A stretch of DNA of 64,000 nt from Eledone cirrhosa (lineage: Eukaryota): the NCBI GenBank assembly GCA_964016885.1, contig OZ024753.1, positions 62,001 through 126,000 on the forward strand, given 5' to 3'. A program made the position numbers and the translations under genes. Numbering within the stretch: the first letter of the stretch is position 1; each line of letters starts with the position of its first letter. Of this stretch, positions 12,289 through 62,332 are shown piece after piece. Under the pieces are notes generated by a model. That model searched no databases. It was not told the origin of the DNA and was given only the letters and a program-made list of their open reading frames with translations.

Positions 12289-12322
<34 letters not shown>

Positions 12323-12555: not shown

Positions 12556-12589
<34 letters not shown>

Positions 12590-15942: not shown

Positions 15943-15976
<34 letters not shown>

Positions 15977-19572: not shown

Positions 19573-19606
<34 letters not shown>

Positions 19607-19839: not shown

Positions 19840-19873
<34 letters not shown>

Positions 19874-22223: not shown

Positions 22224-22908
22224 GGTTAGGTGTACTTAGCACGCAAGGAGGCTGCTCGACAAGAAGATCAAAGACGCGCCGTGTTCCGTATTGCGAGGCT
22301 GTGTGTCAGTGCAAATCGAGATTAAGTTTGTCTGCTTAATGATGCCGGCGTACTTAGTTTTACGGATGGTCAGAAAAAAAAGGCCTGGAAATGTCATTAA
22401 GAGAGACTGATGAATGTGGAGACCCAATGTGAGAAAGAGAGAAATTACCCCCCCAGTACATCCGACAGAGGGATCAGCTATTCAGATTGACGAATATATG
22501 GTCTAAGAGGCGATTAAGGAAATGAATAATGGTAAGGCCGCTGGACCGTCAGGAATAGTTGCCGAGATGCTGCAGGCATCAGGGGAAATAGGCACTCAAC
22601 TGGTTGCACGCTTCATCAAATCAGGCTATATATGTCGGTTTTGTACTCAAAGACTGCTGCAGCAATATTCTCGTAAATTGCTACAAAGGTAAAGGAGATG
22701 CTCTGGACATGAGCAATTATAGAGGAATAAAGCTGATGGATCAGGTTGTGAAAGTGGCAGAAAGGATATTAGCGCAACTAATTATAGAAAGGGTGCAACT
22801 AGATGCGATGCAGTTTGGTTATGTGCCTGGGAAAAGTGCAACAGATACCCTCTTAGCGAGACAACTACAAGAGAGGTTATTAGAAGCCACTATACTTAGC
22901 TTTTGTTG
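22224..22908 (+). pseudogene. Diverged RTE linker-RT segment flanking the array
   Basis: Continues collinearly from the endonuclease into RT (NCYKGKGDALDMSNYRGIKLMDQ...AFVE) without the deletion seen in array units. Confidence 0.88.
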
Positions 22909-29840: not shown

Positions 29841-32800
29841 ATCATCATCATGATCTTCGTTTAACGTCCATATTCCACGCTCGCATGGGTTTGGACGGGA
29901 ATTTTCCCACTTGAGGCAAGAGTGGTTGTCTTGCTCGCATAGGACTGTCTGGCGGGTTTTCTACGGTTGGATGCCCTTCCTAACACCAACCACATTTACA
30001 GTGTGGAACTGGGAGGTTTTTACCGTGTTACCTACACGCCCACATTACAGCGTGGACTGTGTGTGCTTTTGTCGTGACACCTACACGACCTCATTTGTTT
30101 CGGGCTGGATGTTGTGGTACCAACATAACTTTACATTGAAAGGGGTGGTGTGGATGGAGTGGGGGTAATGGGACGGGGGTGTATTTTGTTAGAGGTGCCT
30201 ACTGACTGTAGTAGGTTTCACTTTGTACTTAGGTAAGGCGGGTCTTCTCTATTACTGTGTAGCGCCAAAGAACTCGATCCAGTGACATTGTCTTGGAGAG
30301 GTGTAAGTGTGTGAGGTCGGAATTTATCAAGTCGTCCCAGGTTTTTCTGGGTCTGCCTACTCCGTGGCTACCGTTTATTTTTATTGCCCTGCACATTTTT
30401 ATACAGCTGTCGTCTTTCATGCGCATCACATGACCATACCAACATAGTCTTCTCTCGAGTAAACATCTGATCCCTCTTATTTCTAATTTCTCCCTTATTT
30501 CGTTTATGCTTTGCCGTTCACGTATATTACTATTACACATCCAGCGGAGCATGCAAGCTTCGTTTCTCTCCAGCCTGCGTATATCCTCTGCACACAATGC
30601 CTAGGTCTCACTGCCATGTAACATTGCTGTTCGTATGCAGGCATCATACAGCCTGCCTTTCATTTTTAGAGAGAACCCTTTAACGGCCAATAGTAGTATA
30701 AGCTCTCTTAACTTTTTCCATCCCGTTCTGACTCTAGCTACTGTACTTTCAGAGCACCCTCCCCCACTGCTGATTTTATCACCCAGGTAACGGAAGCTGT
30801 CCACTATTTCTATAGAACCATCTGTGCAATGGAATGAGTTAGTATTCTGTGGGCACTTGTGTGCTACTTATTGCACCAGAGCACCGGCCACATATAAAAT
30901 CTATATTCTTAGTTAGCTTTCCTGTGATCCAACTACATCTTTTATGTAGCCATACTTTGCATTTGGGACATAAAATGGAGTTTCTACCTACGCCTTTCCT
31001 ACACACTGAGCATGGCCATTTCCCAGATGGGACCGGTGCCCTATTTTCCTTCCTACAAACTTTAGTCTTAGACAAGTTAACTTTAAGGCCTTTTGATTCT
31101 AGGCCATGCTTCCATGTTTGGAATTTATTTTCTAGTTCAGCCATTGATTCAGCTATGAGCGTTAGATCATCTGCATATAGGAGTTCCCATGGGCAGCCGG
31201 TCTTGAACTCCTCTGTTATAGCCTGAAGAGCAATAATAAATAGTAGGGGGCTAAGGACGGAGCCCTGATGAACACCAACTTTTACGCTAAACTCTTCACT
31301 ATATTCGTTGTTAATTCTAACCTTGCTGACTGTTTCTTTATACATGGCTTGTATAGCTCTCACAAGCCATTCATCAACACCTAGTTTTCTAAGGGCTCAC
31401 CAGATAATCAAGCGGGGTACTCTGTCAAAGGCTTTCTCCAAGTCAACAAAAGCTAAGTATAGGGGTTTACTTTTAGCTAGGTACTTCTCCTGTAGATGTT
31501 GTACAATGAAAAGAGCGTCTGTTGTACTTTTACCTGACACAAACCCGAACTGCATTTCGTCTAGATCAATTCGCTCTCTGATTAGTTGCGCTATTACTTT
31601 TTCTGTGACCTTCATGACCTGGTCAATTAATTTAATGCCTCTATAGTTTCCCCCTATCTAGGGCATCACCTTTACCCTTGTAGCAGTTAATGATGATGCT
31701 GCTGCGCCAGTCCTTCGGAACGACCCCATTCTGTATGACTTGGTTTACTATCCGGGTGACCATACTGTGTCCCACCGTTCCAGATGCTTTCAGCATTTCG
31801 GCAACTATTTCCGAAGGCCCGGACGCCTTGCCCGTCTTCATGTCTTTGATCGCCTTACTTATTATACTACCTTCAAATTTCACTGCTGGTCCCTCTATTG
31901 GGTCGATGTGGGGGAGACTGTCTTTCTCCCAATTATTCTCCTCATTTAGTAGCCTTTCGTAGTGACACTTCCAAGCTACCTTCTTATCAGCGTCAGTGAT
32001 GGCAAGTACACCATCATCATTTAGGACACACTTCTCCCCGACAATATCACTGTGTTCCTTGACACATTGCCTAGCAATCCTGAACACCTCACGTTTTTGG
32101 TCCTCGCGTTGTAGAACATGCTTGAACTTTCTTTCCTCTGCTTCCCTTCTTGCGAAGTACACTTGTCTCCTAGCTTCCCTCCTGGCCACTTGATAGTCTT
32201 CTCTACTTCCCCCATCCCGCCATGCTTTCCAGCCTTGATTGACCTCTCCACCACCAAGTTACTCTCCTCCTGTCTAGAGGCCTGCTCCAGCCACAGGTTT
32301 CATCTGTCGCCTTCAACAGGTTAGCTTTCAGGAATTCCCACTCTTCCTCTATATTGTACAACTCTAATTGCTCTTCCTTACTATCAAAAGCATCAAGTAA
32401 TATGCTTTTAAATTTATTACTGGCTGTGGGGTCCTTTAATTTCCATATTTTTCTCCTGAGGATAGTCCTCTTCTGTTGTCGAATACGTCTCGTCCTGACT
32501 ATGAGGTCGCTAATTATGAGTCTATGTTGAGACGTGCATTCTTCATGGGGGAGGGATTTAGTGTTTACAACAGACACTCTGTCACGTCTCCTGGTAAGGA
32601 TATAATCTACCTGGCTTGTGTGTCCCCCTATCTATAGGTGATCAAGTGATTGTCTCGTTTTTTGAAGTTAGTGTTACAGATAGTTAGGTTATTTGCGTCA
32701 CAGAATTCCAGGATTCTGGAGCCTTCCTCATTTCTAGTACCAAACCCATAGCCTCCATGGATTCCGTCATAGCCGTCACAATGTTGTCCAACGTGACCAT

Positions 32801-33345
32801 TTAGGTTGCCAGCAATAATTATATAGTCACTGTTGGTTATTTGGGAGGTAGTGAGCATCAGTGTCTCATAGAATCTGTCTTTTATAGTGCCGGGCAGTCC
32901 GGATTGGGGTGCGTACGCAGATATTACTGTCACCGTAGTTCTATTGAGGACAAGTCTTATTTTAATTATTCTGTCGTTCACTCTATTTACGTCTATTATC
33001 TTATCTGCCCACTTTTCTGCTACCATGATTCCTACTCCACCCAGCCCATCGTCATTTCCCACCAAGAAAAGCTTATAGCATCGTTCTTTACCCACGATGA
33101 ATCTAGCAGACCCACCCCTCCACCTGGTCTCTTGAATACAACAAACATCGACCTCCTTACGTTCAAGCATTTCTACAACCTCATTAGAGCGACCCTTTAA
33201 GGTGCCTACATTCATGGTACCAACTCTGAAGTTTTGGATTGCGTTTGGAGGGTGGGAGCGGGGGGAAATGGGGGAGATGGGTTATGTTAGCCATCCACGA
33301 CCGAAACAAAGAGGAGCCCTTGCATTCTCGTCCATGAGGTGAATT
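29841..33345 (-). mobile_element. Near full-length RTE LINE (APE-RT with PHD), disrupted by frameshifts and stops
   Basis: Successive minus ORFs NVGTLKGRS..QETRW, AGNLNGHVG, QFGFVSG, DLEKAFD, HQGSVLSP, YADD, PHD, GRPRKTW; long 3'UTR and (GAT)n tail. Confidence 0.96.
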
Positions 33346-41470: not shown

Positions 41471-42968
41471 CCTATCCATATAGGAGGTAGCAGAGCGGAA
41501 GCCAAACAACATAGGCCAGTCTCCCTGACGTCACATATCAGTAAGGTCATGGAGCGAATCGTCAGAAAGAAACTGATCACTTTCCTCGAGGAAAATGACT
41601 GCCTGACTAACACACAGCATGGCTTTCACCCAGGAAGAAGCTGCCTTACACAGCTGCTACATCATTAAGACTGGGTACTGAAACAACTGCTTGACAGCTC
41701 ACATGTGGACATGATATATCTGGACTTTGCGAAGGCCTTTGACAAAGTCGACCACGGAATGATATGTCACAAACTACACGGACTCACCATAACTAGAAAA
41801 GTAGGTGAGTGGCTGCACGACTTCTTAAAGGAGAGAAGCCAGACAGTCGCAGCAAACGGGGGCCCTCTCAAAGGAATTATCAATAACAAGTGGGGTTCCC
41901 CAAGGCACAGTCCTGGGACCACTACTGTTTTTGGTGGCTCTCTCAGACATACCCTCTGTAGTACATACAACAACATCCCTCACTAGCTATGCTGATGACA
42001 CTAAGGTAGCACAGGAAATCAAAAACCCGGCTGACTCTGCCCTTTTACAACAAGGGCTGTATGCCATATACAAATGGGCAGAAGACAACAACATGCAGTT
42101 TAATGCTGGCAAATTCCAAGTGCTACGCAATTCCTGCAAACACAAATACAGTACAACACAGTTACACCGGACCAGGAGGGACCGATATGACCGATATCCC
42201 TGGGTAAAAATCGATATGAGACTTGGGTATAGACATGAGCGATGATGCATCTTTTTCCTCTCACATCATGAAAGTGGCGACAATGTGCAGACGACTCGCT
42301 GGCTGGATCTTGAAGACTTTCCGGACAAGAGACCGAGACACCATGTTGACACTATGGAGGACATTTGTCCTAAGCCGCCTGGACTATTGCTCCCAGTTGT
42401 GGTCACCCCATAGTGTCAAACTAACCACGGAGCTTGAGGCAATCCAGCGAAGCTACACCAAGAAGATTGTGACTATGAAGGAGATAAGCTACTGGGCGAG
42501 GCTAAAAGAACTGAACCTCTACTCCTTGGAATGAAGACGGGAGAGATACGCAGTGATCTACATGTGGAAAATCCTGGAGGGACTAGCACCAAACTTTGGC
42601 ATTGGCAGCTGGACCAACTGCCGAACAGGACGTCATTGTGTGGTGCCAAAGATCCCGTCTTCCATATCTAGAATAAGGAGCAGATATTGCAAAAGTCTGG
42701 GGTTCAAGGACCCTCAACTCTTCAACAAGCTGCCAAGGGATTTGAGAGATCTGCATGGTGTGGATGTCTTCAAGAAACATGTCGACACCTTGCTATACAA
42801 GATCCTAGATGAGCCCACAGCAAGGCACGAGGGAAACCTAAGGGCAGCAGCAATGAACTCCCTGTTGCACCAGTGGTCAACCAATACAGGCTGGAGATTA
42901 AATGTGTAGCAACAAGGGCGGTGCCCCAGCATAGCCTCAGCCGGATGGCTGGAACAGGTAAAAAGAGT
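41471..42968 (+). mobile_element. 5'-truncated CR1-group LINE (ORF2 RT plus 3' end), decayed
   Basis: RPVSLTSHISKVMERI, QHGF.PGRSCLTQLL, YLDFAKAFDKVDH, GVPQG, YADDTK, RLDYCSQLWSPH, LYSLE*RRERY; tail ggtgccccagcat...aggtaaaaagagta. Confidence 0.92.
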
Positions 42969-42969
42969 A

Positions 42970-43004
<35 letters not shown>

Positions 43005-43009
<5 letters not shown>

Positions 43010-43382
43010 AAGTGTTAAAACGATCAAATTTTAGTTTAGAACATTTATTTGCTGACAATTGTTTCTTCCAGAAACATGTTACTAAAATCCTATCATTCAG
43101 AACATTTAAGATACATAATTGTTATTAGTGTCAAAGGCATCATGTGGAGAATCAGGAGTTAAAAAGATGTTCTGCTTGAAAGAACACAATTACAGGCAGC
43201 ACTGGTTGGAAGTGTAATAGGTATAAGTAAAAAGCACAAGCAAAAAAATCACAGGCATAAAAGTTATAAGCAATGTTTCAACATTCCTTATGCTCCGATG
43301 ATTCCAGACTTCCCTCTGGAAGAAACAATTGTCAGCAAATAAATGTTCTAAAGTAAAATTTGATCATTTTAACACTTTGTAT
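43005..43382. mobile_element. 378-bp element with 68-bp inverted repeats containing a hammerhead (Penelope-like inverted pLTR arrangement)
   Basis: 43005-43072 is the reverse complement of 43315-43382 with 2 mismatches. Confidence 0.75.
43291..43337 (+). ncRNA. Minimal type I hammerhead ribozyme, variant core CCGAUGA
   Basis: Stem I tgct/agca; CCGATGA; stem II ttccaga-cttccc-tctggaa; GAAA; palindromic stem III caattg; GUC cleavage triplet; AATAAA follows. Confidence 0.75.
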
Positions 43383-43459
43383 CTCGGTTCTGTAAAACAC
43401 TTGAAAACTTGCATTGAGCCTTTTGTCATACCGGTAACCTTCCAGATCATTATATGGAA

Positions 43460-43800: not shown

Positions 43801-44552
43801 TTATGTATGTGTACGTATGTGTGTGTATGTATGTATATGCATGTATGTGTATGTATGTATGTATATGCATGTATGTATATGCATGTATGTATATGCATGT
43901 ATGTGTATGTATGTATGTATGTGTATGTATGTATGTATATGTATATATGTATGTGTATATATGTGTATATGTATATGTATGTATGTATATATGTGTGTAT
44001 GTATGTATGTGTGTATGTATGTATGTGTGTATGTATGTATATGTGTGTATGTATGTATATGTGTGTATGTATGTATATATGTATGTGTGTATGTATGTAT
44101 ATATATATGTGTGTGTATGTAAATATGTATGTGTGTATGTATATATGTATGTGTGTGTATATATGTATGTGTATATATATATGTATGTGTATATATATAT
44201 GTATGTGTATATATATATGTATGTGTATATATATATGTATGTGTATATATATATGTATGTGTATATATGTATGTATGTGTATATATGTATGTATGTGTAT
44301 ATATGTATGTATGTGTATATATGTATGTATGTGTATATATGTGTGTGTGTGTATGTATGTGTGTGTGTGTATGTATGTATGTATATGTATGTATGTATAT
44401 GTATATATACTTGTGTATATGCTTATGTATGCGTATGTATGTATATGTATATATATATGTATGTATGTATATGTATGTATATGTGTATGTATATGTGTAT
44501 GTATGTATGTATGTGTGTGTATGTATGTATGTATGTGTATGTATATGTATAT
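43801..44552. repeat. Compound TA/TG microsatellite (paralogue at 53063-53535)
   Basis: tatg/tgta/tata arrays. Confidence 0.95.
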
Positions 44553-44880
44553 GGAGGCACATGGCTTAGTGGTTAGAGCATTGGCCTGGCAATCGAAAGG
44601 TTGTGAGTTCAATTCTCAGACCGGGTGATGTGTTGTTTCCTTGAGCAAAACACTTTATTTCACATTGCTCCAGTTTACTCAGCTGTAGAAATGAGATGAT
44701 AGGGACTAGGGTCCATATCATTCCACTGCAAAGTGGTCGTGGAGGTGCCATGGCAAAAAAGCACCCAGCACTCACTGTAAATGAGGTTGGTGTTAGGAAG
44801 GGCATCCAGCTGTAGAAATCAAGCCAGAATCAGTTCCCGTCCCACCCTTGCAAGCAGGGAAAAAGCGGACTTAAAACGAA

Positions 44881-44912
<32 letters not shown>
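44553..44912 (+). mobile_element. tRNA-derived SINE with RTE tail and (GAT)n
   Basis: ggaggcacatggcttagtggttagagc...gagttcaattc; same family as 34150. Confidence 0.92.
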
Positions 44913-44913
<1 letters not shown>

Positions 44914-45169
44914 TATGTATGTATGTGTATATGTATGTATGTATGTATATGTATGTATGTGTATGAGATGCAGCTTGGTTTTGTGCCGCTGAAAAGTGCA
45001 ACAGATGCCCTCTTCTTAGTGAGACAACTACAAAAGAGGTTCTTAGAGAAAAATAAGCCACTAAACTTAGCTTTGGACATAGAGAAGGCTTTTGATAGAG
45101 AACTCTTATAAATGACAACATATATATACGTGTGTGTATATATATGTTTTTTTTAAAACTATATATTTA

Positions 45170-45480
45170 TTACTCCCTTAAGCAGAAGAAATATATTCCC
45201 AGATATCGAAGATTACCACAATAACTAGGGAGCGGAAGTCAAAAGATGCTGGACATTGCTGCTGAGGGTAGGATGACCTGATGAGCTGGCTCCTGTGGTG
45301 GATACCTAAACATAGTAAGACCCAAGTGGGATGACTGAGGTTCACCTACATATATCAGATGTCTCTGGATCTCCAGCTAGAGATTAATGATCTCAGGAAT
45401 GCCATGAAAAATCGTGACATCTAAAAAAGAAGAGTAGAATTGTTCTGGCCAATCCACCTGACCTAATAAACAATAATAAT
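45170..45480 (+). pseudogene. RTEX-like LINE ORF2 C-terminal relic (paralogue ~54150-54460)
   Basis: KITTITRERKSKDAGHC, LLWWIPKHSK.QVG, TYIYQM...DLRNAMKNRD. Confidence 0.6.
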
Positions 45481-45559
45481 ATTAATATATATTGATGAAA
45501 ATTAATTATGGTGAAATATCTTAGAAATCATTCTCAGAGGTTTTGTATTGTAATCCACA

Positions 45560-47558
45560 CTTGCTCATTGTGGCTTCTGATGCAGACATCATGTCCGCCA
45601 TCAGGTCCTTCCCAGCTAGCAGCTGCGGAGATGTTGATGGTCTCTGACCAGGCCTCCTCAAGGAGTTCATATCTCCCCTCTCCGCTGAGGCCGGGCGCCG
45701 CCTTCTGAGTGCAATTGTGGCGCTCACCAATAGGCTCATCCATGGCGCCCTGGACTCTTATGCTCGAGGCCTCTTTTTTTCGGCCAGCCTCACCGCTCTC
45801 AGGAAGAAAGAGGATGGCATACGCCCCATTGCTGTGGGCAATGTCTTCCGGAGGCTGGCTGCCAAGGTAATCTGCAAGTCCGTAACACTCGGAACCGGCA
45901 TCCAGGGCCTCCAGCCACCTCATTGTCAAGTTTGACATGAGGAATGCCTTCAACTCTTTACGCTGGGATCATCTGCTCGAGGCCTGCCTCAGCCGAGCCC
46001 CCTCTGCCTACCTGTCATATGGAGCCCCAAGCATGCGCCATGCTGCTGATACGGTCATACCCTTGGCTACTGGGATCCAACAGGGCAACCCTTTGGGACC
46101 CCTCCTGTTCACCCTTGGTATTGACCACATCGCCTGGAGTATAACGGCCCCTCTCAACGTTTGGTATCTGGATGATGCTACTTTGGGTGGGCCCGTACAG
46201 GCGGTCTGCCATGACCTTCAATCGGTGGTTCCTGCCCTGGCGGGAATCGACCTCCAGGTCAACTCAGCCAAGTCGGAGGTGGTGAATGTCAGCCTCGATG
46301 CTGCAAGCTTTGCAGTCTCCGTCTTGGACGTGCGGTCCATTCTCCGCCAGGTTCAGGTGACCCCCCAAAGAGGATGCCCTCACCGATCCACCCGCCGGCC
46401 ATCCGCTCCTCCATCAAGTCCAGACTCTCACGAGCCGACTGGGCTTGATTGATGGCCACCCAGTTCTCTTTCTGCTGAGGAACTGCTACGCCATGCCGAA
46501 GCTCCTCTATACACTCTGTGCTACACCTAAACTTGTATCCGAGAAGCAGCCGATGAGATATGCAACTTTACCTGTCAGGTATGGCGGCCTTCGCCTCCAG
46601 TCCCCGATCTCACTAGCTTTGCCGGCATATCTTTCGTCGGTAACCTTGTACCACGTCCTCCTCAGCAGGGTTCTTCAAAACACAACAGAACCCTCTGTGT
46701 TCAGAGAACGCGTGGCCGCCTGTGAGACGTGGGACCGGCTGGGACTTAGCCCAGTAGACGTTCCTCCTCTTTCTCCCCCTGTTGACGTCAAGTCCCCCCC
46801 AACACACTTGGGATGCCATCCAGTGCAGCCTGGCCTCAGACAGGCTCACGCGCCAGCTCGACCAGCACCGCCTTGTTTGTTTTCGTGCAGCCTCCAAACC
46901 CCACAGTGGGGCCTGGCTCCATGCCCTGCCCTCCTTCTCCACTCGCACGCAGCTAGACAACAATAGCTTGCGCATCGGCGTTTCCCTGAGGCTCGGCCTC
47001 ACACCAATGTCGCTGCCGTTCCACCATGGACTCTTTCGGCCTCCACCCGCTTTCCTGTCGCCACAGTGCCAGCCGCAATCCACGCCATGCTGCCCTCAAC
47101 GAAGTCATTAAGCATGGCTTGGACGCTGCAGGCTTCCCTTCCCAGCTCGAGAGGACGGCAAAAGGCTAGATGGCATGACCATCTTCCCGTTCCGCGGTGG
47201 CAAACCCCTCGTCTGGGATGCCACTTGCACCGACACTTTCTGCAGCCGCAACCTGGTGCAGTCTGCGACTGGCCCAGGTTCTGCTGCACGTCAGGCTGAG
47301 AGGGCCAAACTCCTCACATATCGTTCACTCTCCGACAGGTTTGCGGTCGTACCCCTGGAAGTGGAGACTTCTGGTGTCCTCGGCCCCAGGGCTACCTCCT
47401 TACTCACCACCATAGGCGCTGAGCTGGCCAGCCGCAGGTGTGAGCCCCGCGAGTTGGAGTGGCTTTTCCAGCGCGTCTCCCTTGCCGTGCTCCGGGGAAA
47501 CGCCTTCTCCATTCTGTCCGCCGGGGCTGTGGGTGGGTCCCATCGCGTACCATTATGA
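45560..47558 (+). mobile_element. CRE-clade non-LTR retrotransposon relic (RT plus restriction-like endonuclease), 5'-truncated and frameshifted
   Basis: RSFPASS, RPIAVGNVFRRLAAK, DMRNAFNSL, GIQQGNPLGPLLF, WYLDDATLGG, LPVRYGGL, SGAWLHALP, DGMTIFPFRGGKPLVWDATCTDT, AERAK..Y, VETSG, FQRVSLAVLRGNA. Confidence 0.9.
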
Positions 47559-48551
47559 ATGTATACAAAACAACTAAATCTCTTAAATAACTTCACTTAT
47601 ATCCAAAACATGATTTGTATGTACATCAACAGTGACTCATTATTATACGCCAGTCACGACCCCACTGCAAAAACGATATCTATATAACAACCCCACCGTA
47701 AAACTACTCTTCCCCACTTTACAAACACTTTATATTATTTGTCATTAAGGTTTCTTAAAATAAATATATATACGTATGTGTAGTAATTAGTACGGGGGCT
47801 CAGAGAAGGGACTAGAGTGCCTTTATGGAGGGCACATGGGACCAGCAAAGTCCTAAAAGTAGAGACCAGTAAATGAGATAAGGTCCTAGCTATGTTAAGA
47901 ATATAAATAAGAAACATGTTCTATACATTTAAGAAGACAAGAGAAACATGTTCTAAACAGTTAAGAAATAATTATTTACCTCTTTCATGTCGGTAATATA
48001 GCGGTGTTATAAAACTAATTATAACGACCGGTGTTAAAATAGAGAGAGATAGACAGATAAATGTGTGTCACACTCTCACCCTCTCTTTAAATCTTTTACA
48101 CTATCTAACTCGTACTTCTCACACTCTCTTTAAATCTTTTACTCTATCTACCTCTCATTTCTATCTGTGTATGTATGTATGTATCTGTCTATGTGTAACT
48201 CGGTGTACTGGAGCAATATGAAGTGAAGTGTCTTGCTCAAGAAGACATTTTGTGGAGTTATATCATCGTTTCTTGTTATAAAGCTACTTATACTACCGGC
48301 GTAACAGTGGCTATAGGTGATAGATGTAGAAATAAAAGGCTGTAACAGCGATATAAATATAGATGAAATAGTTTACCACGAGACTAAGAATGAATGTTTA
48401 ATGGAATTAAGTGTAATCTAATAGGAAATAAGAGGCTAGAGCAGCGAAATGTTTACGTAAAATAAAAGAACAACAAACAAGAGTGCAACATTGAAATTTT
48501 TTTTTTTTTTTTGTCGATATAAGCGTTATTTTATGCGCGATTTGCCTTGCT

Positions 48552-48640
48552 GCCGGCGCTGCTTAGTCAGTAGCAGCCCCGCTTACGAAGTTCAGGAGCC
48601 AACGACTTTACATGGTTCGAATCTCACCCTCTCCGCTCTT
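48552..48640 (+). mobile_element. tRNA-like SINE head (paralogue 57555-57640)
   Basis: A-box-like gttgctcagtcagtag (copy 2) and B-box-like ggttcgaatct ~55 nt apart; no proper cloverleaf. Confidence 0.45.
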
Positions 48641-49363
48641 GTCGAGTTATCTCCTACTCTTTTTACTTAGTTCCAGGTCATTAAAATAGAGCAAAGAGGG
48701 CGCGGCGATCGGCATATGCACTGGCTACAATGTTGTACTTTGGTACTGACTGCGTAGTTGAACGTTCCACATACCAACCGCCCAACTGGCCAGTCAACCG
48801 CATATGCGGCTGGCTGGCCGGTTGGGTAGTTGGCATATGTACTGGCTACCATGCTGAAAATTGTACTGACTGTCAAGTTGAACGTTCTAACCCTCTCTTT
48901 ACATCTATTACTCTATCTACCGCTTAGTTCTCCCCCTCTCTTTACTTCTATAACTCTATCTCCCACTCTCTTTACATCTATTACAGTGTCTCCCTGTATA
49001 TATACACGTATATATGCACTAGATTTTATAAGAAATCTACGTAATAATATAATTAACAATAGTTGATGAATTAGACCAGAGTTAATTAAACAATAAATAT
49101 GAATGAAATAGCAGTAGATGGCGAAACTTGAGTGTTGTGTGTGCATACATATATATGAGGTAAACTGGTTCAAATACTGTCAGGATTATATTGGATCAAA
49201 GACTGTATTAAATAGAAAGTAAAAAATGAAGTGAAAATATAAAAACAAACTGAAAATTTCCCCATCCCTAGAAAAATTCATATCTTGTTATATATAGATA
49301 ATTGGCGCTTTAAATTGAATAAATATTCATTTATATATATATATATGTATATATATATGTACA

Positions 49364-52120
49364 CTGAATAAGACAATTACCACAATAATATCAGCTTACG
49401 CACCCCAATCGGGGCTGCCAGACGAACTTAAGGATAGGTTTTACGAGTCCCTAATACACACTACTGCTCTAACAGACGACAAGGACTTCCTAATCATTGC
49501 AGGAGATTTTAACGGACACGTAGGTAAACACTGCGACGGCTTCAATAGAGTACATGGAGGCCATGGAGTTGGCACAAGGAATGAGGAAGGATTCAGACTT
49601 CTAGAATTCTGCGACGCCAATGACATGTCGATATGTAACACAAACTTTAAAAAACCCGACAACCACCTGATCACCTATAGATCAGGGGAGCACTCTAGTC
49701 AGTTAGATTTTATCCTCATCAGAGGACGTGACAGATGGACGGTCGTAAACACAAAAGCCTTCCCTAGTGAGGAATGTACATCCCAACATAGCTTAGTTGT
49801 CAGCGACCTCACGGTCAGAACTAGACGAGCCCTGAAACAGAGGCCAACCTGGAGAAGAAAGATCTGGAAGCTGAAAGTCCCCTCAACCAGTAACAGATTT
49901 AAAGATATTTTACTCAACGCCTACGACAGTAAAGAAGAACAGATAGAGACATTTAACGTAGAAGAGAACTGGGAGTTCCTAAAAAATAACTTACTAGAGG
50001 CGACGGATGAGGTTTGTGGCTGGAGTAAGACCTCAAGCAGGAGGAGAGTGACTTGGTGGTGGAACAATAAGGTAGATGAAGCAGTCAAGGCCAAGAGACA
50101 GGCATGGAAAGAATGGAAGAACGGGGGGAGCAGGGTACATTACATAGAGACCAAGAGGGAAGCTAGGCGACAAGTATACTTAGCTAGGAGGGAAGCAGAG
50201 GATAGAAAATTCAAGCATGTTTTACAACGTGAGGACCAGAAACAGGAGGTATTCAAGATTGCGAGGCAGTGTGTCAGAGATAGTTGTGATGTCATTGGAG
50301 AGAAGTGTATCCGGAATGATAAAGGTGAGCTTGCCCTCACAAGTGCTGAGAAGAAAGATGCATGGAAGAGTCATTATGATAGATTACTAAATGAGGAGAA
50401 TGCATGGGAAGAAGAGACCCTACCCCACGTAGACCCTATAGAGGGACCAGCAGTACAAGTCAGCGGCAGCGTAGTAAGTAAGGCAATCAGAGATATGAAG
50501 ATAGGGAAGGCAACCGGTCCATCGGGTATAGCTGCCGAGATGCTGAAGGCATCTGGGTCTGTAGGTCACACTATAACCACACGTATCGTTAACCAGGTAA
50601 TACTAGAGGGGGCCATACCAAAAGATTGGTGCAGTAGCATCATTGTCAACTGCTACAAAGGTAAAGGCGATGCACTAGATAGAGGAAACTATAGAGGTAT
50701 AAAGTTGATGGACCAGGTCATGAAAGTAACAGAAAGAGTTATAGCACAGCTGATTAGGGACCGGGTGAATATAGACGAGATGCAATTTGGGTTTGTACCA
50801 GGGAAAGGCACCACTGATGCGCTCTTCCTTGTGAGGCAATTACAGGAAAAGTACCTAGCTAAAAGTAAGCCACTCTACTTGGCATTTGTCGACCTTGAGA
50901 AAGCCTTTGACAGAGTTCCACGTGCAGTAATCTGGTGGGCTCTTAGAAAACTAGGAGTAGATGAATGGCTTGTGAAAGCGGTACAAGCCATGTATAGGGG
51001 AGCAGTCAGCAAAGTTAGGATTGGCAATGAGTATAGCGAGGAATTTAGCGTACAGGTTGGGGTCCACCAGGGCTCTGTTCTTAGCCCTCTCCTGTTCATC
51101 ATAGTCCTGCAGGCAATAACGGAGGAGTTTAAGACCGGATGCCCATGGGAACTCCTGTATGCTGATGACCTCGCACTCATAGCTGAATCTATGGTAGAAC
51201 TAGAGAATAAATTCCAAACCTGGAAGCAGGGACTAGAGAGAAAGGGCCTCAAAGTCAACATGACAAAGACTAAGGTCCTTATAAGTAGACGAGAAAACAG
51301 AACCCAGATCCCCTCAGGGAAATGGCCTTGCTCAGTATGTAGGAAAGGTGTAGGTAGGAACTCCATTCTTTGCCCCAAATGCAAACAATGGGTACACAAG
51401 AGATGTAGCGGGATCTCAGGAAGCTTAATTAAGAATGTAGGATTCACATGCAGCAGCTGTGCTGAAACAGCAAGCAAACAGCCACAGGAAACAAGTACCA
51501 CCAATCTCTGGGAGGGCCCTGTAGAAACAGTAGACAGCTTCTGCTACCTAGGTGACCGAATTAGCAACGGAGGTGGGTGCTCAGAAAGTACAATAACTAG
51601 GGTAAGAACGGGATGGAAGAAGTTTAGGGAACTACTACCACTGCTAGCTGCAAAAGGCTTCTCCCTCAGAATGAAAGGCAGACTGTATGATGCGTGTATC
51701 CGAACAGCGATGTTGCATGGTAGTGAGACCTGGGCGCTGAAGGTGGAATACCTACGTAGATTAGAGAGAAACGAAGCCTGCATGCTCCGATGGATGTGTA
51801 ACAGTAATATACGTGAACGACAAAGCATAAATGAATTGAGAGAGAGACTGAGCATAAGAGGAATCAAATGCTGCGTGCAGGAGAGGCGGTTACGCTGGTA
51901 TGGACATGTGATGCGTATGAAGGATGACAGCTGCATAAAAAGGTGCAGAGCACTAGAAGTTGATGGAAACCGCGGAGTGGGGAGACCCAAGATGACTTGG
52001 GATGAGGTGATAAAAGCCGACCTTACCCAACTACACCTCTCAAAGTCAATGACACACGACCGTGACTTCTGGCGTCACGCAGTAATACAGGGTACCCGAC
52101 CTCCCATGGGTACATGCTGA
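49364..52120 (+). CDS. RTE ORF: partial APE endonuclease, RT with inserted PHD finger; open for ~918 codons (831 aa from first Met at 49625), N-terminus lost
   Basis: Frame is open upstream of the called Met (ISAYAPQ, AGDFNGHVG); QFGF, DLEKAFD, HQGSVLSP, YADD, FCYLG, GRPKMTW all intact. Confidence 0.93.
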   Translation: MNKTITTIISAYAPQSGLPDELKDRFYESLIHTTALTDDKDFLIIAGDFNGHVGKHCDGFNRVHGGHGVGTRNEEGFRLLEFCDANDMSICNTNFKKPDNHLITYRSGEHSSQLDFILIRGRDRWTVVNTKAFPSEECTSQHSLVVSDLTVRTRRALKQRPTWRRKIWKLKVPSTSNRFKDILLNAYDSKEEQIETFNVEENWEFLKNNLLEATDEVCGWSKTSSRRRVTWWWNNKVDEAVKAKRQAWKEWKNGGSRVHYIETKREARRQVYLARREAEDRKFKHVLQREDQKQEVFKIARQCVRDSCDVIGEKCIRNDKGELALTSAEKKDAWKSHYDRLLNEENAWEEETLPHVDPIEGPAVQVSGSVVSKAIRDMKIGKATGPSGIAAEMLKASGSVGHTITTRIVNQVILEGAIPKDWCSSIIVNCYKGKGDALDRGNYRGIKLMDQVMKVTERVIAQLIRDRVNIDEMQFGFVPGKGTTDALFLVRQLQEKYLAKSKPLYLAFVDLEKAFDRVPRAVIWWALRKLGVDEWLVKAVQAMYRGAVSKVRIGNEYSEEFSVQVGVHQGSVLSPLLFIIVLQAITEEFKTGCPWELLYADDLALIAESMVELENKFQTWKQGLERKGLKVNMTKTKVLISRRENRTQIPSGKWPCSVCRKGVGRNSILCPKCKQWVHKRCSGISGSLIKNVGFTCSSCAETASKQPQETSTTNLWEGPVETVDSFCYLGDRISNGGGCSESTITRVRTGWKKFRELLPLLAAKGFSLRMKGRLYDACIRTAMLHGSETWALKVEYLRRLERNEACMLRWMCNSNIRERQSINELRERLSIRGIKCCVQERRLRWYGHVMRMKDDSCIKRCRALEVDGNRGVGRPKMTWDEVIKADLTQLHLSKSMTHDRDFWRHAVIQGTRPPMGTC

Positions 52121-52514: not shown

Positions 52515-53060
52515 AACTTCATAATATGTCCGCTTTTCCATGCTTGCAAGGGTGGGGTGGGAGCTGATTCTGGATTGGTTTCTACAGCTGGGTGCCCTTC
52601 CTGACGCCAACCCCGTTTGCAGTGAGTGCTGGGTGCTTTTTTTTTTCCGTGGCACCTCCACGTCAGCTTTACAGTGTGGGCTGGGTGCTTTTTTGCCGCG
52701 GCGCCTCCACGACCACTTTGCGGTGGGGTGGTGGGGTGGTATGTGTATACCCAGCCCATTGTCATTTGCCACACAGAAAAGCTTATAGCATCGTTCTTTA
52801 CCCACGATGAATCTAGCAGACCCACCCCTCCACCTGGTCTCTTGAATACAACAAACATCGACCTCCTTACGTTCAAGCATTTCTACAACCTCGTTAGAGC
52901 CACCCTATAAGGTGCCTACATTAATGGTACCAACTCTGAAGTTTTGGATTGCGTTTGGAGGTTGGGAGCGGTGGGGAGCGGGGATGGGGTTAGGGTTAGC
53001 CATCCGCGGCCGAAACAAAGAGGAGGAGCCCTTGCATTCTCGTCCATGAGGTGGATTTGT
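52515..53060 (-). mobile_element. Bipartite (internally deleted) RTE: 5' end fused to 3'UTR/tail; truncated paralogue at 58450-58788
   Basis: APE N-terminus (QETRWRGGS...NDNGLG) joins at ~52745 to the aaagtggtcgtggagg repeats, aggaagggca domain and RTE tail. Confidence 0.85.
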
Positions 53061-53535
53061 CTTTATGTATGTATATGTATATATGTATGTATGTGTGTGT
53101 ATGTATGTATATGTATATATGAGTGTATATGTGTATATGTATGTGTATGTATGTGTATATATGTGTATATGTATGTGTTTGTATATATGTGTGTGTATGT
53201 ATATATGTGTGTGTATGTATATATATATATGTATGTATGTGTATATGTATGTATATGTATGTATGTGTATATGTATATATGTGTGTATGTATGTATATAT
53301 GTATGTATGTGTATATATGTATGTATGTATATGTATATATACGTGTGTATATGTATATATACTTATGTGTATATGCTTATGTATGTGTATGTATGTATAT
53401 TTATATTATGTATATATATATATCTATGTATGTATATGTATGTATATGTGTATGTATGTGTATGTATGTATGTGTATATATGTATGTATGTATATATATA
53501 TGTATGTGTATGTATATGTATATGTATATGTATAT

Positions 53536-53889
53536 GGAGGCACATGGCTTAGTGGTTCGAGCATTGGCCTGGCAATCGAAAGGTTGTGAGTTCAATTCTC
53601 AGACCGGGTGATGTGTTGTTTCCTTGAGCAAGACACTTTATTTCACATTGCTCCAGTTTACTCAGCTGTAGAAATGAGATGATAGGGACTGGGGTCCATA
53701 TCATTCCACTGCAAAGTGGTCGTGGAGGTGCCACGGCAAAAAAGCACTCAGCACTCACTGTAAATGAGGTTGGTGTTAGGAAGGGCATCCAGCTGTAGAA
53801 ATCAAGCCAGAATCAGTTCCCGTCCCACCCTTACAAGCAGGGAAAAAGCGGACTTAAAACGAAATGATGATGATGATGATGATGATGAT
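53536..53889 (+). mobile_element. tRNA-derived SINE with RTE tail
   Basis: Paralogue of 44553-44912. Confidence 0.92.
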
Positions 53890-54540
53890 GTATGTATGTA
53901 TGTGTATATGTATGTATGTATGTATGTATATGTATGTATGTGTATGAGATGCAGTTTGGTTTTGTGCCGCTGAAAAGTGCAACAGATGCCCTCTTCTTAG
54001 TGAGACAACTACAAAAGAGGTTCTTAGAGAAAAATAAGCCACTATACTTAGCTTTGGACATAGAGAAGGCTTTTGATAGAGAACTCTTATAAATGACAAC
54101 ATATATATATGTGTGTGTATATATATGTTTTTTTTTAAACTATATATTTATTACTCCCTTAAGCAGAAGAAATATATTCCCAGATATCGAAGATTACCAC
54201 AATAACTAGGGAGCGGAAATCAATAGATGCTGGACATTGCTGCTGAGGGTAGGATGACCTGATGAGCTGGCTCCTGTGGTGGATACCTAAACATAGTAAG
54301 AGCCAAGTGGGATGACTGAGGTTCACCTACATACATCAGATGTCTCTGGATCTCCAGCTGGAGATTAATGATCTCAGGAATGCCATGAAAAATCGTGACA
54401 TCTAAAAAAGAAGAGTAGAATTGTTCTGGCCAATCCACCTGACCTAATAAACAATAATAATATTAATATATATTGATGAAAATTAATTATGGTGAAATAT
54501 CTTAGAAATCATTCTCAGAGGTTTTGTATTGTAATCCACA

Positions 54541-56539
54541 CTTGCTCCTTGTGGCTTCTGATGCAGACATCATGTCCGCCATCAGGTCCTTCCCAGCTAG
54601 CAGCTGCGGAGATGTTGATGGTCTCTGACCAGGCCTCCTCAAGGAGTTGATATCTCCCCTCTCCGCTGAGGCCGGGCGCCGCCTTCTGAGTGCAATTGTG
54701 GCGCTCACCAATAGGCTCATCCATGGCGCCCTGGACTCTTATGCTCGAGGCCTCTTTTTTTCGGCCAGCCTCACCGCTCTCAGGAAGAAAGAGGATGGCA
54801 TATGCCCCATTGCTGTGGGCAATGTCTTCCGGAGGCTGGCTGCCAAGGTAATCTGCAAGTCCGTAACACTCGGAACCGGCATCCAGGGCCTCCAGCCACC
54901 TCATTGTCAAGTTTGACATGAGGAATGCCTTCAACTCTTTACGCTGGGATCATCTGCTCGAGGCCTGCCTCAGCCGAGCCCCCTCTGCCTACCTGTCATA
55001 TGGAGCCCCAAGCATGCGCCATGCTGCTGATACGGTCATACCCTTGGCTACTGGGATCCAACAGGGCAACCCTTTGGGACCCCTCCTGTTTACCCTTGGT
55101 ATTGACCACATCGCCTGGAGTATAACGGCCCCTCTCAACGTTTGGTATCTGGATGATGCTACTTTGGGTGGGCCCGTACAGGCGTTCTGCCATGACCTTC
55201 AATCGGTGGTTCCTGCCCTGGCGGGAATCGACCTCCAGGTCAACTCAGCCAAGTCGGAGGTGGTGAATGTCAGCCTCGATGCTGCAAGCTTTGCAGTCTC
55301 CGTCTTGGACGTGCGGTCCATTCTCCGCCAGGTTCAGGTGACCCCCCAAAGAGGATGCCCTCACCGATCCACCCGCCGGCCATCCGCTCCTCCATCAAGT
55401 CCAGACTCTCACGAGCCGACTGGGCTTGATTGATGGCCACCCAGTTCTCTTTCTGCTGAGGAACTGCTACGCCATGCCGAAGCTCCTCTATACACTCTGT
55501 GCTACACCTAAACTTGTATCCGAGCAGCAGCCGATGAGATATGCAACTTTACCTGTCAGGTATGGCGGCCTTCGCCTCCAGTCCCCGATCTCACTAGCTT
55601 TGCCGGCATATCTTTCGTCGGTAACCTCGTACCACGTCCTCTTCAGCAGGGTTCTTCAAAACACAACAGAACCTTCTGTGTTCAGAGAACGCGTGGCCGC
55701 CTGTGAGACGTGGGACCGGCTGGGACTTAGCCCAGTAGACGTTCCTCCTCCTTCTCCCCCTGTTGACGTCAAGTCCCCCCCAACACACTTGGGATGCCAT
55801 CCAGTGCAGCCTGGCCTCAGACAGGCTCACGTGCCAGCTCGACCAGCACCGCCTTGTTTGTTTTCGTGCAGCCTCCAAACCCCACAGTGGGGCCTGGCTC
55901 CATGCCCTGCCCTCCTTCTCCACTCGCACGCAGCTAGACAACAATAGCTTGCGCATCGGCGTTTCCCTGAGGCTCGGCCTCACACCAATGTCGCTGCCGT
56001 TCCACCATGGACTCTTTCGGCCTCCACCCGCTTTCCTGTCGCCACAGTGCCAGCCGCAATCCACGCCATGCTGCCCTCAACGAAATCATTAAGCATGGCT
56101 TGGACGCTGCAGGCTTCCCTTCCCAGCTCCAGGGGACGGCAAAAGGCCAGATGGCATGACCATCTTCCCGTTCCGCGGTGGCAAACCCCTCGTCTGGGAT
56201 GCCACTTGCACCGACACTTTCTGCAGCCGCAACCTGGTGCAGTCTGCGACTGGCCCAGGTTCTGCTGCACGTCAGGCTGAGAGGGCCAAACTCCTCACAT
56301 ATCGTTCACTCTCCGACAGGTTTTCGGTCGTACCCCTGGAAGTGGAGACTTCTGGTGTCCTCGACCCCAGGGCTACCTCCTTACTCACCACCATAGGCGC
56401 TGAGCTGGCCAGTCGCAGGTGTGAGCCCCGCGAGTTGGAGTGGCTTTTCCAGCGCGTCTCCCTTGCCGTGCTCCGGGGAAACGCCTTCTCCATTCTGTCC
56501 GCCGGGGCTGTGGGTGGGCCCCATCGCGTACCGTTATAG
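54541..56539 (+). mobile_element. CRE-clade retrotransposon relic, second copy
   Basis: Same motifs and the same frameshifts as 45560-47558. Confidence 0.9.
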
Positions 56540-58312
56540 TTGTTGAAGAAGAAACAGGGAGACAACAACTGGAATGTATACAAAACAACTAAATCTCTTA
56601 AATAACTTCACTTATATCCAAAATATGATTTGTATATACATCAACAGTGACTCATTATTATACGCCAGTCACGACCCCACTGCAAAAACGATATCTATAT
56701 AACAACCCCACCGTAAAACTACTCTTCCCCACTTTACAAACACTTTATATTATTTGTCATTAAGGTTTCTTAAAATAAATATATATACGTATGTGTAGTA
56801 ATTAGTACGGAGACTGAGAGAGAAGGGGCGAGTGTGTCTTCATGGAGGGCACATGGGACCAGCAAAGCCCTAAAAGTAGAGACCAGTAAATGAGATAAGG
56901 TCCTAGCTATGTTAAGAATATAAATAAGAAACATGTTCTATACATTTAAGAAGACAAGAGAAACATGTTCTAAACATTTAAGAAATAATTATTTACCTCT
57001 TTCATGTCGGTAATATAGCGGTGTTATAAAACTAATTATAACGACCGGTGTTAAAATAGAGAGAGATAGACAGATAAATGTGTGTCACACTCTCACCCTC
57101 TCTTTAAATCTTTTACACTATCTTTACATCTTTTACTCTATCTCCCTCTTATTTCTATCTGTGTACATATATATGTGTATGTATGTATCTGTCTATGTGT
57201 AACTCGGTGTACTGGAGCAATATGAGGTGAAGTGTCTTGCTGAAGAAGACATTTTGTGGAGTTATATCATCGTTTCTTGTTATAAAGCTACTTATACTAC
57301 CGGCGTAACTGTGGCTATAGGTGATAGATGTAGAAATAAAAGGCTGTAACAGCGATATAAATATAGATGAAATAGTTTACCACGAGACTAAGAATGAATG
57401 TTTAATGGAATTAAGTGTAATCTAATAGGAAATAAGAGGCTAGAGCAGCGAAATGTTTACGTAAAATAAAAGAACAACAAACAAAAGTGCAACATTGAAA
57501 TTTTTGTTTTATTTTCTCGATATAAGCGTTATTTTATGCGCGATTTGCCTTGCTGCCGGCGTTGCTCAGTCAGTAGCAGCCCCGCTTACGAAGTTCAGGA
57601 GCCAACGACTTTACATGGTTCGAATCTCACCCTCTCCGCTCTTGTCGAGTTATCTCCTACTCTTTTTACTTAGTTCCAGGTCATTTAAATAGAGCAAAGA
57701 GGTCGCGGCGATCGGCATATGCACTGGCTACAATGTTGAACTTTGGTACTGACTGCATAGTTGAACGTTCCACATACCAACCGCCCAACTGGCCAGTCAA
57801 CCGCAAATACGGCTGGCTGGCCGGTTGGGTAGTTGGCATATGTACTGACTGTCAAGTTGAACGTTCTAACCCTCTCTTTACATCTATTGCTCTATCTACC
57901 GCTTATTTCTCCCCCTCTCTTTACTTCTATAACTCTATCTCCCACTCTCTTTACATCTATTACACAGTGTCTCCCTGTATATATACACGTATATATGCAC
58001 TAGATTTTATAAGAAATCTACGTAATAATATAATTAACAATAGTTGATGAATTAGACCAGAGTTAATTAAACAATAAATATGAATGAAATAGCAGTAGAT
58101 GGCGAAACTTGAGTGTTGTGTGTGCATACATATATATGAGGTAAACTGGTTCAAATACTGTCAGGATTATATTGGATCAAAGACTGTATTAAATAGAAAG
58201 TAAAAAATGAAGTGAAAATATAAAAACAAACTGAAAATTTCCCCATCCCTAGAAAAATTCATATCTTGTTATATATAGATAATTGGCGCTTTAAATTGAA
58301 TAAATATTCATT

Positions 58313-58349
<37 letters not shown>

Positions 58350-59942: not shown

Positions 59943-61865
59943 TCATCATCATCATCATCGTTTAACGTCCATATTCCACGCTTGCATGGGTTTGGACGGG
60001 AATTTTCCCACTTGAGGCAAGAGTGGTTGTCTTGCTCGCATAGCACTGTCTGGCGGGTTTTCTACAGCTGGATGCCCTTCCTAACACCAACCGCATTTAC
60101 AGTGTGGGACTGAGAGGTTTTTACCGTGTTACCTACACGGCCACATTACTGCGTGGACTGTGTTTTTTTTTTTTGTCGTGACACCTACACGACCTCATTT
60201 GTTTCGGCCTGGATGTTGTGGCACCAACATAACTTTACATTGAAAGGGGCGGTGTGGATGGGGTGGGGGTGTATTTTGTTAGAGGTGCCTACTGACTGTA
60301 GTAGGTTTTACTTTGTATCTAGGTAAGGCGGGTCTTCTCTATTACTGAGTACCGCCAAAGATCTCGGTCCAGTGACATTGTCTTGGAGAGGTGTAAGTGT
60401 GTGAGGTCGGAATTTATCAAGTCGTCCCAGGTTTTTCTGGGTCTGCCTACTCCGTGGCTACCGTCTATCTTTATTGCCCTGCATTTTTTTTATACAGCTG
60501 TCGTCTTTCATCCGCATCACGTGGACCATACCAACGTAGTCTTCTCTCGAGTACACAACATCTGATCCCTCTTATTTCTAATTTTTCCCTTAGTTCGTTT
60601 ATGCTTTGCCGTTCACATATATTACTATTACACATCCAGCGAAGCATGCAAGCTTCGTTCCTCTCTAGTCTGCGTATATCCTCTGCACACAATGCCCAGG
60701 TCTCACTGCCATGCAACATTGCTGTTCATATGCAGGCATCATACAACCTGCCTTTCATTTTTAGGGAGAACCCTTTAGCGGCTAATAGTGGTATAAGCTC
60801 TCTGAACTTTTTCCATCCAGTTCTGACTCTAGCTACTGTACTTTCAGAGCACCCTCCCCCACTGCTGATTTTGTCACCCAGGTAACGGAAGCTGTCCACT
60901 ATTTCTATAGAACCCTCTGCGCAATTGAAAGAGCTAGTATTTTGTGGGCACTTGCTGCTACTTATTGCACCAGAGCACCGGCCACATGTAAAATCTATGT
61001 TCTTAGTTAGCTTACCTGTGATCCCACTACATCTTTTATGAACCCATACTTTGCATTTGGGACATAAAATGGAGTTTCTACCTACGCCTTTCCTACACAC
61101 TGAGCATGGCCATTTCCCGGAAGGGACCGGCGCCTTATTTTCTTTCCTACAAACTAGAACTTTAGTCTTAGCCAGGTTAATTTTAAGGCCTTCTGATTCT
61201 AGGCCTTGCTTCCATGTTTGGAATTTCTTCTCTAGCTCGGCCATTGATTCAGCTATGAGCGTTAGATCATCTGCGTATAGGAGTTCCCATGGGCAGCCGG
61301 TCTTGAACTCCACTGTTATAGCCTGAAGGGCAATAATAAATAGTAGGGGGCTAAGGACGGAGCCCTGATGAACACCAACTTTTACGCTAAACTCTTCACT
61401 ATATTCGTTGTTAATTCTAACCTTGCTGACTGTTTCTTTATACATGGCTCGTATAGCTCTCACAAGCCATTCCTCAACACCTAGTTTTCTAAGAGCCCAC
61501 CAGATAATGGAACGGGGGACTCTGTCGAAGGCTTTCTCCAAGTCAACAAAAGCTAAGTATAGGGGTTTACTTTTAACTAGGTACTTCTCCTGTAGTTGTC
61601 GTACAATGAAAAGAGCGTCTGTGGTACTTTTACCTGACACAAACCCGAACTGCATTTCATCTAGATCAATTCTCTCTCTGATTAGTTGCGCTATTACTTT
61701 TTCCGTGACCTTCATGACCTGGTCGATTAATTTAATGCCTCTATAGTTACTCCTATCTAGGGCATCTCCTTTACCCTTGTAACAGTTAATGATGATGCTG
61801 CTACGCCAGTCCTTCAGAACAACCCCATTCTGTATGACTTGGTTTACTATCCGGGTGACCATTAC
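59939..61865 (-). mobile_element. 5'-truncated RTE LINE (RT with PHD, long 3'UTR), same subfamily as 29841-33345
   Basis: 418-aa minus ORF with full RT motifs and PHD; near-identical UTR; (GAT)n tail. Confidence 0.95.
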
Positions 61866-62332
61866 GTGTATACATCTGAAAATGTATATATGTATGCAAA
61901 GATATAAGTAAACATACATGTATACATATAGATGGACAGTTATGCATATACAATAACTTATTTCTATACATACATATACCACAAGTAAGGCATGGTGCTG
62001 CCAACTAACCAGACCTCCCTCATAATGGACCAGCTAGATCCCAAAATACAGGCCTGCTTGCCAACACACAGTCCCAATAAGTGTAAGTTACAGCGCAGCT
62101 ATCTGGACAGACTTGTCTTAAGACTACACACTATCCCACTACATCTTTTGTATACTATATATATACTGTTTATATATATATATATACTATATATATATAT
62201 ACTGTTTATATATATATATACTATATATATATATACTGTTTATATATATATACACACATATAATTGTGTATTCACACATTATCTTAGTAATGAAATAATT
62301 AATAATTTTAGTAAATTGTTCAAAATTCTTCA

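What the first reader, a model, noticed from the sequence alone, without database searches (positions are those of the whole stretch)
43005..43382. Small inverted-repeat element carrying a minimal hammerhead ribozyme with a non-canonical CCGAUGA core
Seen: a complete type I hammerhead fold at 43291-43337 (4-bp stem I, perfect 7-bp stem II, GAAA, palindromic CAAUUG stem III, GUC triplet, AATAAA just downstream), with U4 of CUGAUGA replaced by C. Its 3' part is duplicated in inverted orientation as a 68-bp arm abutting a (TA)n run. Known: minimal type I hammerheads with palindromic stem III mark Penelope-like pLTRs and retrozymes and can cleave as dimers; inverted truncated pLTRs are typical of Penelope insertions. 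Inference: a non-coding, Penelope-mobilised ribozyme element; the antisense arm could sequester the ribozyme in a read-through transcript and act as an off-switch.
Basis: partly seen in the sequence, partly recalled or inferred. Interest (0 to 1): 0.75.

Follow-up and report, generated by a model that had tools for sequence, protein, structure and literature searches.

The report
Altered-core hammerhead in Hydra-clade retrotransposon
This stretch is a broken leftover of a Penelope-like jumping gene whose whole lineage, thousands of copies including young intact ones, carries a hammerhead RNA fold with a C at a core position that is normally U, and it likely still cuts itself slowly as a pair of RNAs, though cutting is untested.

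Summary
The type I hammerhead fold (43291-43337) and the 68-bp inverted repeat are real. The stretch is not a stand-alone non-coding element. It is a decayed, 5'-truncated, tail-to-tail insertion of a Hydra-clade Penelope-like retrotransposon (PLE) at a (TA)n run, later multiplied by segmental duplication. C4 is the lineage norm: 5,813 C4 against 258 U4 and 132 G5A motif matches genome-wide. It is kept in at least three diverged subfamilies, including young copies (98-99.9% identical) with intact 832-aa RT/GIY-YIG frames. Helix III stays self-complementary through five variants, including a change at the central pair that can only pair between two RNAs. All 26 published Hydra hammerhead rows have U4; the only natural U4C I found in print is a viroid variant. 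The off-switch is unsupported: the left arm is an inverted copy with a 36-37-nt deletion seen only in duplicates of this locus. Cleavage is untested and no RNA run was listed. New variant of a known kind; moderate interest.

The parts
42968..43007 (.). (TA)n microsatellite at the left insertion end, the preferred target of Hydra PLEs
   Evidence: 35 of 75 family copies end in (TA)n without tail; Hydra target per PMC8557442
43005..43273 (-). Inverted copy of the element's 3' UTR/pLTR end; 36-37-nt internal deletion (at about 43072/43073) removes the 5' strand of stem I, the core and the 5' strand of stem II
   Evidence: alignment to intact copy L039; deletion mapped
43005..43072 (-).
43273..43439 (+). 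5'-truncated copy of the pLTR end, 95-96% identical to dispersed copies
43291..43337 (+). Type I hammerhead fold with palindromic helix III; predicted cut after 43333
43295..43301 (+). Core CCGATGA with C at position 4 (43296)
43326..43331 (+). Self-complementary helix III hexamer, predicted to pair between two RNA copies
43280..43347 (+). Extended stem I (43280-43285 with 43342-43347) around the ribozyme
43383..43439 (+). Optional PLE 'tail' extension, present at one end only, cut short here
   Evidence: 31 of 75 copies carry it; tail described in PMC8557442 and PMC11167929

Best explanation
This is a decayed tail-to-tail insertion of a Hydra-clade Penelope-like retrotransposon whose terminal repeat carries a type I hammerhead fold with C instead of U at core position 4 throughout the lineage, and that fold likely cleaves slowly, as a dimer of two repeats paired through the palindromic helix III. 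Shown: family membership, C4 as consensus in old and young subfamilies, covariation of helices II and III, and the inverted-copy anatomy. Inferred: in full-length elements the two pLTR hammerheads about 4.2 kb apart would pair through helix III and cut after GUC/GUA, 254 nt upstream of the first ATG, trimming the element from read-through RNA, possibly only with help from the element's own protein; C4 would lower the rate. This genomic copy has one intact ribozyme, no ORF and a complementary arm upstream, so it is most likely inert.
For: Motif counts C4 5,813 / U4 258 / G5A 132; 21-mer of this subfamily 538 / 107 / 27, C3U 12. At loci fetched by the endonuclease protein search, with the 7 core letters left free, 28 of 30 hammerhead rows have C4 (one locus counted twice). 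All 11 core positions are identical among three ORF-anchored subfamilies whose upstream flanks are 46-61% identical against a 54% shuffled baseline. Eight loci with stop-free 832-aa frames are 97.9-99.9% identical and their 16 matched hammerheads all have C4. Helix III hexamer is self-complementary (G-U allowed) in 68 of 74 copies, with five recurrent variants; both-side changes at helix II column 17/26 (13 of 37) and helix III 37/40 (4) and 38/39 (2); covariation score above 500 of 500 shuffles and above all slid controls. The ORF has DKT, RWR (RWK-like), CxCX5C, CxxC and CxH motifs, matching the Hydra definition; homologues carry GIY-YIG and RVT_1 hits. Dimeric, weak, protein-assisted cleavage is reported for other PLE hammerheads.
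Against: No cleavage assay exists for this RNA. U4C is reported to reduce activity considerably in vitro (PMC3088659). PLE hammerhead cleavage was not needed for insertion in vitro in an Anolis Poseidon element (PMC11167929), so persistence of the family does not prove catalysis. Covariation cells count related sequences, not events; the number of pairs with both-side change (3) did not beat shuffles (188 of 500); the 5' strands were fixed by my search patterns. U4 is about twice as common as the G5A control (4-fold in this subfamily), which simple symmetric CpG decay does not explain.
Confidence: 0.62

Rival explanations
1. Same element, but the C4 fold no longer cleaves at a useful rate. It is kept as a structural module, for RNA dimerisation through helix III or as a protein-binding fold during retrotransposition.
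For: U4C lowers activity; cleavage dispensable for insertion in vitro in another PLE; Naiads spread without canonical hammerheads; helix III self-complementarity is kept.
Against: The other core positions are unchanged across subfamilies while N7 (U/A) and H17 (C/A/U) vary exactly as a catalytic core allows. A viroid with U4C still cleaves enough in vivo to infect (citing Ambros and Flores 1998, not read).
Confidence: 0.3
2. One reading: a small non-coding ribozyme element whose antisense arm is a selected off-switch.
For: In a plus-strand read-through transcript the arms would pair and remove the 3' half of the ribozyme (378-nt fold -135.9 kcal/mol, z -13). The arrangement is present in at least 30 near-identical loci.
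Against: Those 30 loci also share at least 2.1 kb of surrounding DNA with the window, most of it flanking LINE and microsatellite sequence (one, L008, only on the right side), so they are segmental duplicates, many near contig ends. Independent insertions have variable arms, mostly with two whole ribozymes, and none of 22 has this deletion. Inverted truncated copies are the normal PLE insertion product.
Confidence: 0.04
3. C4 is a chance mutation of this copy in a canonical CUGAUGA family.
For: A minority of copies have U4 (258), up to 21 of 55 in the oldest-looking subfamilies.
Against: C4 outnumbers U4 about 22 to 1, is the majority even in the old subfamilies (29 of 55), and U4 is scattered on the tree (25 changes for 45 rows, at least 17 forced by well-supported branches).
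Confidence: 0.01

Closest known systems
Hydra-clade Penelope-like elements and their hammerheads (Craig et al. 2021, PMC8557442; read: passages, section 11, supplement parts 2 and 54 of 59, term searches)
   Same: Single ORF with RT then GIY-YIG; DKT, RWK-like, CxCX5C, CxxC and CxH motifs; (TA)n targets; inverted 5'-truncated copies; type I hammerhead near the 3' end with short helix III and often a non-G-C pair at the foot of stem II.
   Different: All 26 Hydra rows of File S2 have CTGA; this lineage has CCGA. Unit about 4.2 kb with a 3' UTR of about 1.7 kb against the usual <3 kb. ORF 33-41% identical to its best database relatives.
Minimal/palindromic type I hammerheads of metazoan PLEs (Cervera and De la Pena 2014, PMC4209133; read: main text parts 1-2 of 4, supplement file 2 part 2 of 3)
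   Same: Long helix II, short helix I, palindromic helix III, AU-rich flanks, predicted dimer.
   Different: Consensus is CUGANGAH with G10.1-C11.1; all 44 Fig. S3 rows in the part I read have U4. The reported core variant is U3-A8, not C4.
Natural U4C hammerhead variant of a viroid (Ambros and Flores 1998, seen only as cited in Perreault et al. 2011, PMC3088659, passages and section 8)
   Same: Same core substitution; reported to cleave poorly in vitro yet enough in vivo.
   Different: A rare variant of one viroid, whereas here it is the consensus of a multi-thousand-copy genomic retroelement lineage in a dimer-type ribozyme.
Non-LTR retrozymes (bioRxiv 10.64898/2026.07.22.740005, part 1 of 5 read)
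   Same: Type I hammerhead of PLE origin in non-coding DNA.
   Different: Retrozymes are head-to-tail tandems with a ribozyme in each unit; this locus is an inverted pair with one intact ribozyme.

Membership tests
Hydra-clade PLE | Single ORF with RT and C-terminal GIY-YIG endonuclease linked to this pLTR | tested here: met
   832-aa frames flanked by the C4 hammerhead; window-identical hammerhead downstream of a frameshifted frame covering residues 14-830 at L172. Pfam did not hit the ORF itself; homologues hit GIY-YIG and RVT_1. The window copy itself has no ORF.
Hydra-clade PLE | DKT in place of DKG, and RWK motif | tested here: met
   ADKTN at 135; RVRWR at 49, R for K
Hydra-clade PLE | CxCX5C linker; CxxC and CxH at the C terminus | tested here: met
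   691, 789, 817 in the young ORF; same motifs in the window's subfamily at L102, linker at L172
Hydra-clade PLE | Insertion into (TA)n; pLTR direct repeats; inverted truncated copies; tail | tested here: met
Hydra-clade PLE | Placement inside the Hydra clade on an RT tree | not tested
   Only motif match and by-eye likeness to published Hydra RT rows; no tree with reference PLEs was built
Neptune-clade PLE | CX2-5CxxC linker | tested here: not met
   Linker is CxCX5C, unlike the Neptune rows of Fig. S2; my first guess of Neptune, from recall, was dropped
Type I hammerhead ribozyme | Three-helix junction with covarying stems | tested here: met
Type I hammerhead ribozyme | Core C3 U4 G5 A6 N7 G8 A9 / G12 A13 A14 / A15.1-U16.1 / H17 | tested here: not met
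   10 of 11 conserved positions canonical; position 4 is C. No Rfam hammerhead hit. Filed as a variant for this reason.
Type I hammerhead ribozyme | Site-specific self-cleavage | not testable with these tools
   Needs an assay or raw RNA reads
Non-LTR retrozyme | Head-to-tail tandem units each with a hammerhead | tested here: not met
   Inverted pair, one intact ribozyme in the window

The most novel reading that the evidence does not exclude
A recently active retrotransposon lineage has run through several subfamily turnovers on a hammerhead with the nearly invariant U4 replaced by C, while selection keeps an intermolecular helix III. Either the element's protein or the dimer rescues the core, or the ribozyme has become an RNA-pairing module. 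Searches with CUGANGA would miss a whole class of such PLE ribozymes.
Probability: 0.45. Interest if true: 0.62.

Novelty: new variant of a known kind. Interest (0 to 1): 0.42.

Why it matters
Whether PLE hammerheads need to cleave at all is open: one purified PLE inserts without cleavage and Naiads lack canonical hammerheads. This lineage gives a natural test: young intact elements with a fixed weakening core change, spontaneous U4 copies for comparison, and covariation that points to pairing between two RNAs. It also shows that descriptor searches fixed on CUGANGA can overlook more than 5,800 motifs in one genome. The locus in the window is itself ordinary debris.

Tried and rejected
Rfam: no hammerhead match. 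Pfam and PDB sequence searches with the 832-aa ORF: nothing significant; Pfam on six ORF fragments: nothing. Neptune assignment, from recalled motifs, rejected. The 100%-identical hits first looked like a young burst but are segmental duplicates. Sequencing runs: no RNA holder listed; laid contigs of four runs of unrecorded kind list no other letter at position 4 above 5%, but they cannot show ends or expression and may not be independent. The monomer energy printed used a mis-registered stem I extension and is not used; the constrained dimer energy there (-27.2) is above the free dimer optimum (-32.0), so folding energy does not by itself favour the active dimer. Paired U4 arms (7 pairs in the first 100 rows) could mean U4 source elements, but G5A pairs also occur and gene conversion can give the same, so this was left undecided. 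The tree (138 rows, 180 columns, enriched for U4 and G5A rows by design, midpoint root, bootstrap not converged) does not date the origin of C4. Literature searches for a PLE C4 core found only the viroid case and one virome paper using a CYGANGA descriptor (PMC13481778, passages). Lunse et al. 2017, Ambros and Flores 1998 and Nelson and Uhlenbeck 2008 were not held; Lunse et al. surveys PLE hammerhead variants and could already list C4. File 1 of the PMC4209133 supplement could not be searched. PMC6765202 and PMC3907566 passages added nothing on C4. Earlier scan notes returned concern scrambled Naiad-type hammerheads and group I introns, not this motif.

Full report
Observation. Stem I extends by six further pairs. 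The 68-nt inverted repeat is 97% complementary and abuts (TA)n. Rfam returns no hammerhead family.

What the copies are. A DNA search of the 3.0-Gb own genome gave 82 matches from 40 scored of 1,755 candidates. The 30 best share at least 2.1 kb around the element, including flanking LINE and microsatellite DNA, and many lie near contig ends, so they are segmental duplicates of one insertion. More diverged matches are independent insertions with long inverted arms. Against an intact copy, the window holds a minus-strand copy 43005-43273 and a plus-strand copy 43273-43439. The minus-strand copy has lost 36-37 nt covering the 5' half of the ribozyme, which is why only 68 bp look like an arm. Of 90 loci examined, 34 had both orientations; 7 are this locus or its duplicates with the same deletion. 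Of 22 independent loci where both orientations cover the ribozyme region, 17 have two whole ribozymes, 5 have one damaged arm in other ways, and none has this deletion. The other 5 two-orientation loci covered too little to score. Of 75 copies, 35 end in (TA)n, 31 carry the tail extension and 9 neither. This is the published PLE insertion anatomy (PMC8557442; PMC11167929).

The parent element. Upstream of family copies lie RT and endonuclease fragments. Searching with the endonuclease part gave 150 scored matches, including a subfamily at about 68% identity with stop-free 832-aa frames. I fetched eight such loci; they are 97.9-99.9% identical over about 4.2 kb, with direct-repeat pLTRs and inverted partners. 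At L172 a 47-nt hammerhead identical to the window's lies 1.47 kb downstream of a frameshifted frame covering residues 14-830 of that ORF at 49-62% identity. The ORF itself hits nothing in Pfam or PDB, but its homologues (818 of 7,994 scored; best 33-41% identical) include GIY-YIG and RVT_1 hits. Its motifs (DKT, RWR, CxCX5C, CxxC, CxH) match the Hydra clade as defined in PMC8557442 section 11 and its RT region resembles the Hydra rows of the supplement by eye. No RT tree with references was built.

C4 is the lineage state. Exact 21-mers of this subfamily: C4 538, U4 107, G5A 27, C3U 12. A degenerate 19-mer spanning subfamilies: 5,813, 258 and 132, with 0 in reversed controls. In older subfamilies: 29 C4, 21 U4, 5 G5A of 55. 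At ORF-anchored loci, with the core left free, 28 of 30 rows have C4, as do all 16 matched hammerheads at the eight intact-ORF loci. On a 138-row tree U4 needs 25 changes and is interleaved with C4, though more clustered than shuffled labels. C4-G5 is a CpG, so U4 and G5A are the two expected decay products (established knowledge); the two- to four-fold excess of U4 over G5A is unexplained and may reflect some U4 source elements.

Signs of selection. Among three ORF-anchored subfamilies all 11 conserved core positions are identical, the 47-nt motif is 74-81% identical, and upstream flanks are near the shuffled baseline; downstream flanks are 56-76% identical. N7 and H17 vary. Helix II shows a G-C to A-U change in 13 of 37 rows; helix III shows A-U, G-U and G-C at columns 37/40 and at the adjacent columns 38/39. 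Adjacent bases cannot pair within one hairpin, so a compensated change there is best read as pairing between two molecules (inference). The hexamer is self-complementary in 68 of 74 copies. Caveats: related rows inflate cell counts, the count of covarying pairs did not beat shuffles, and the 5' strands were fixed by my patterns.

How it likely works. In a full-length element, two pLTR ribozymes about 4.2 kb apart would pair through helix III and cut 254 nt upstream of the first ATG and again near the 3' end. Weak dimeric cleavage is reported for PLE hammerheads (PMC4209133) and protein-assisted cleavage for an Anolis element, where cleavage was not needed for insertion. U4C is reported to reduce activity but to suffice in a viroid in vivo (PMC3088659). 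I put slow dimeric cleavage at about 0.6 and a non-cleaving structural role at about 0.3. The window copy is probably inert: it has one ribozyme, and in a read-through transcript the left arm would pair with its 3' half, but as an accident of insertion and deletion.

Novelty. PLE hammerheads, dimers, inverted copies and the Hydra clade are known. All 26 Hydra rows of File S2 and the 44 Fig. S3 rows I read in PMC4209133 have U4; those surveys used CUGANGA-type descriptors, so they could not have shown C4. Seven literature searches found no PLE with C4; one virome study allows Y at this position. Lunse et al. 2017 could not be read and may bear on this. Verdict: new variant of a known kind, interest 0.42.

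Noticed in passing
window 3643-22368: Tandem array of about 3.65-kb units, 98.6-99.6% identical, made of LINE fragments and microsatellites.
   Followed up: no
window 49319-52120 (+), 60726-62033 (-), 30839-33281 (-): LINE frames with endonuclease, RVT_1 and a PHD finger C-terminal to the RT; the 933-aa frame is stop-free.
   Followed up: partly
window 41500-42960 (+): 3' part of a broken LINE with RT-like motifs ending just left of the (TA)n target.
   Followed up: partly
window 44036-49361 and 53052-58340: Direct duplication of about 5.3 kb at 95% identity, 9 kb apart.
   Followed up: no
G000:C58:136751-167299 (L016-L019): The window's element recurs in a tandem array with a period of about 10.07 kb; similar blocks sit about 100 kb from the ends of several large contigs.
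   Followed up: partly
L161 4073-5772: The young subfamily has a 3' UTR of about 1.7 kb, long for Hydra elements, and an A/G pair of letters at the foot of stem II where the window's subfamily has U-A.
   Followed up: no
L102 9163-9801 (-): A second, more distant PLE endonuclease fragment (35% identity to the young ORF) with a CxCX5C linker; its hammerhead was not examined.
   Followed up: no
versus one search match lists: U4 copies look relatively more frequent on the smaller contigs (C20-C27) than on C1 (8 U4 against 67 C4), which could reflect regional CpG methylation; not tested.
   Followed up: no
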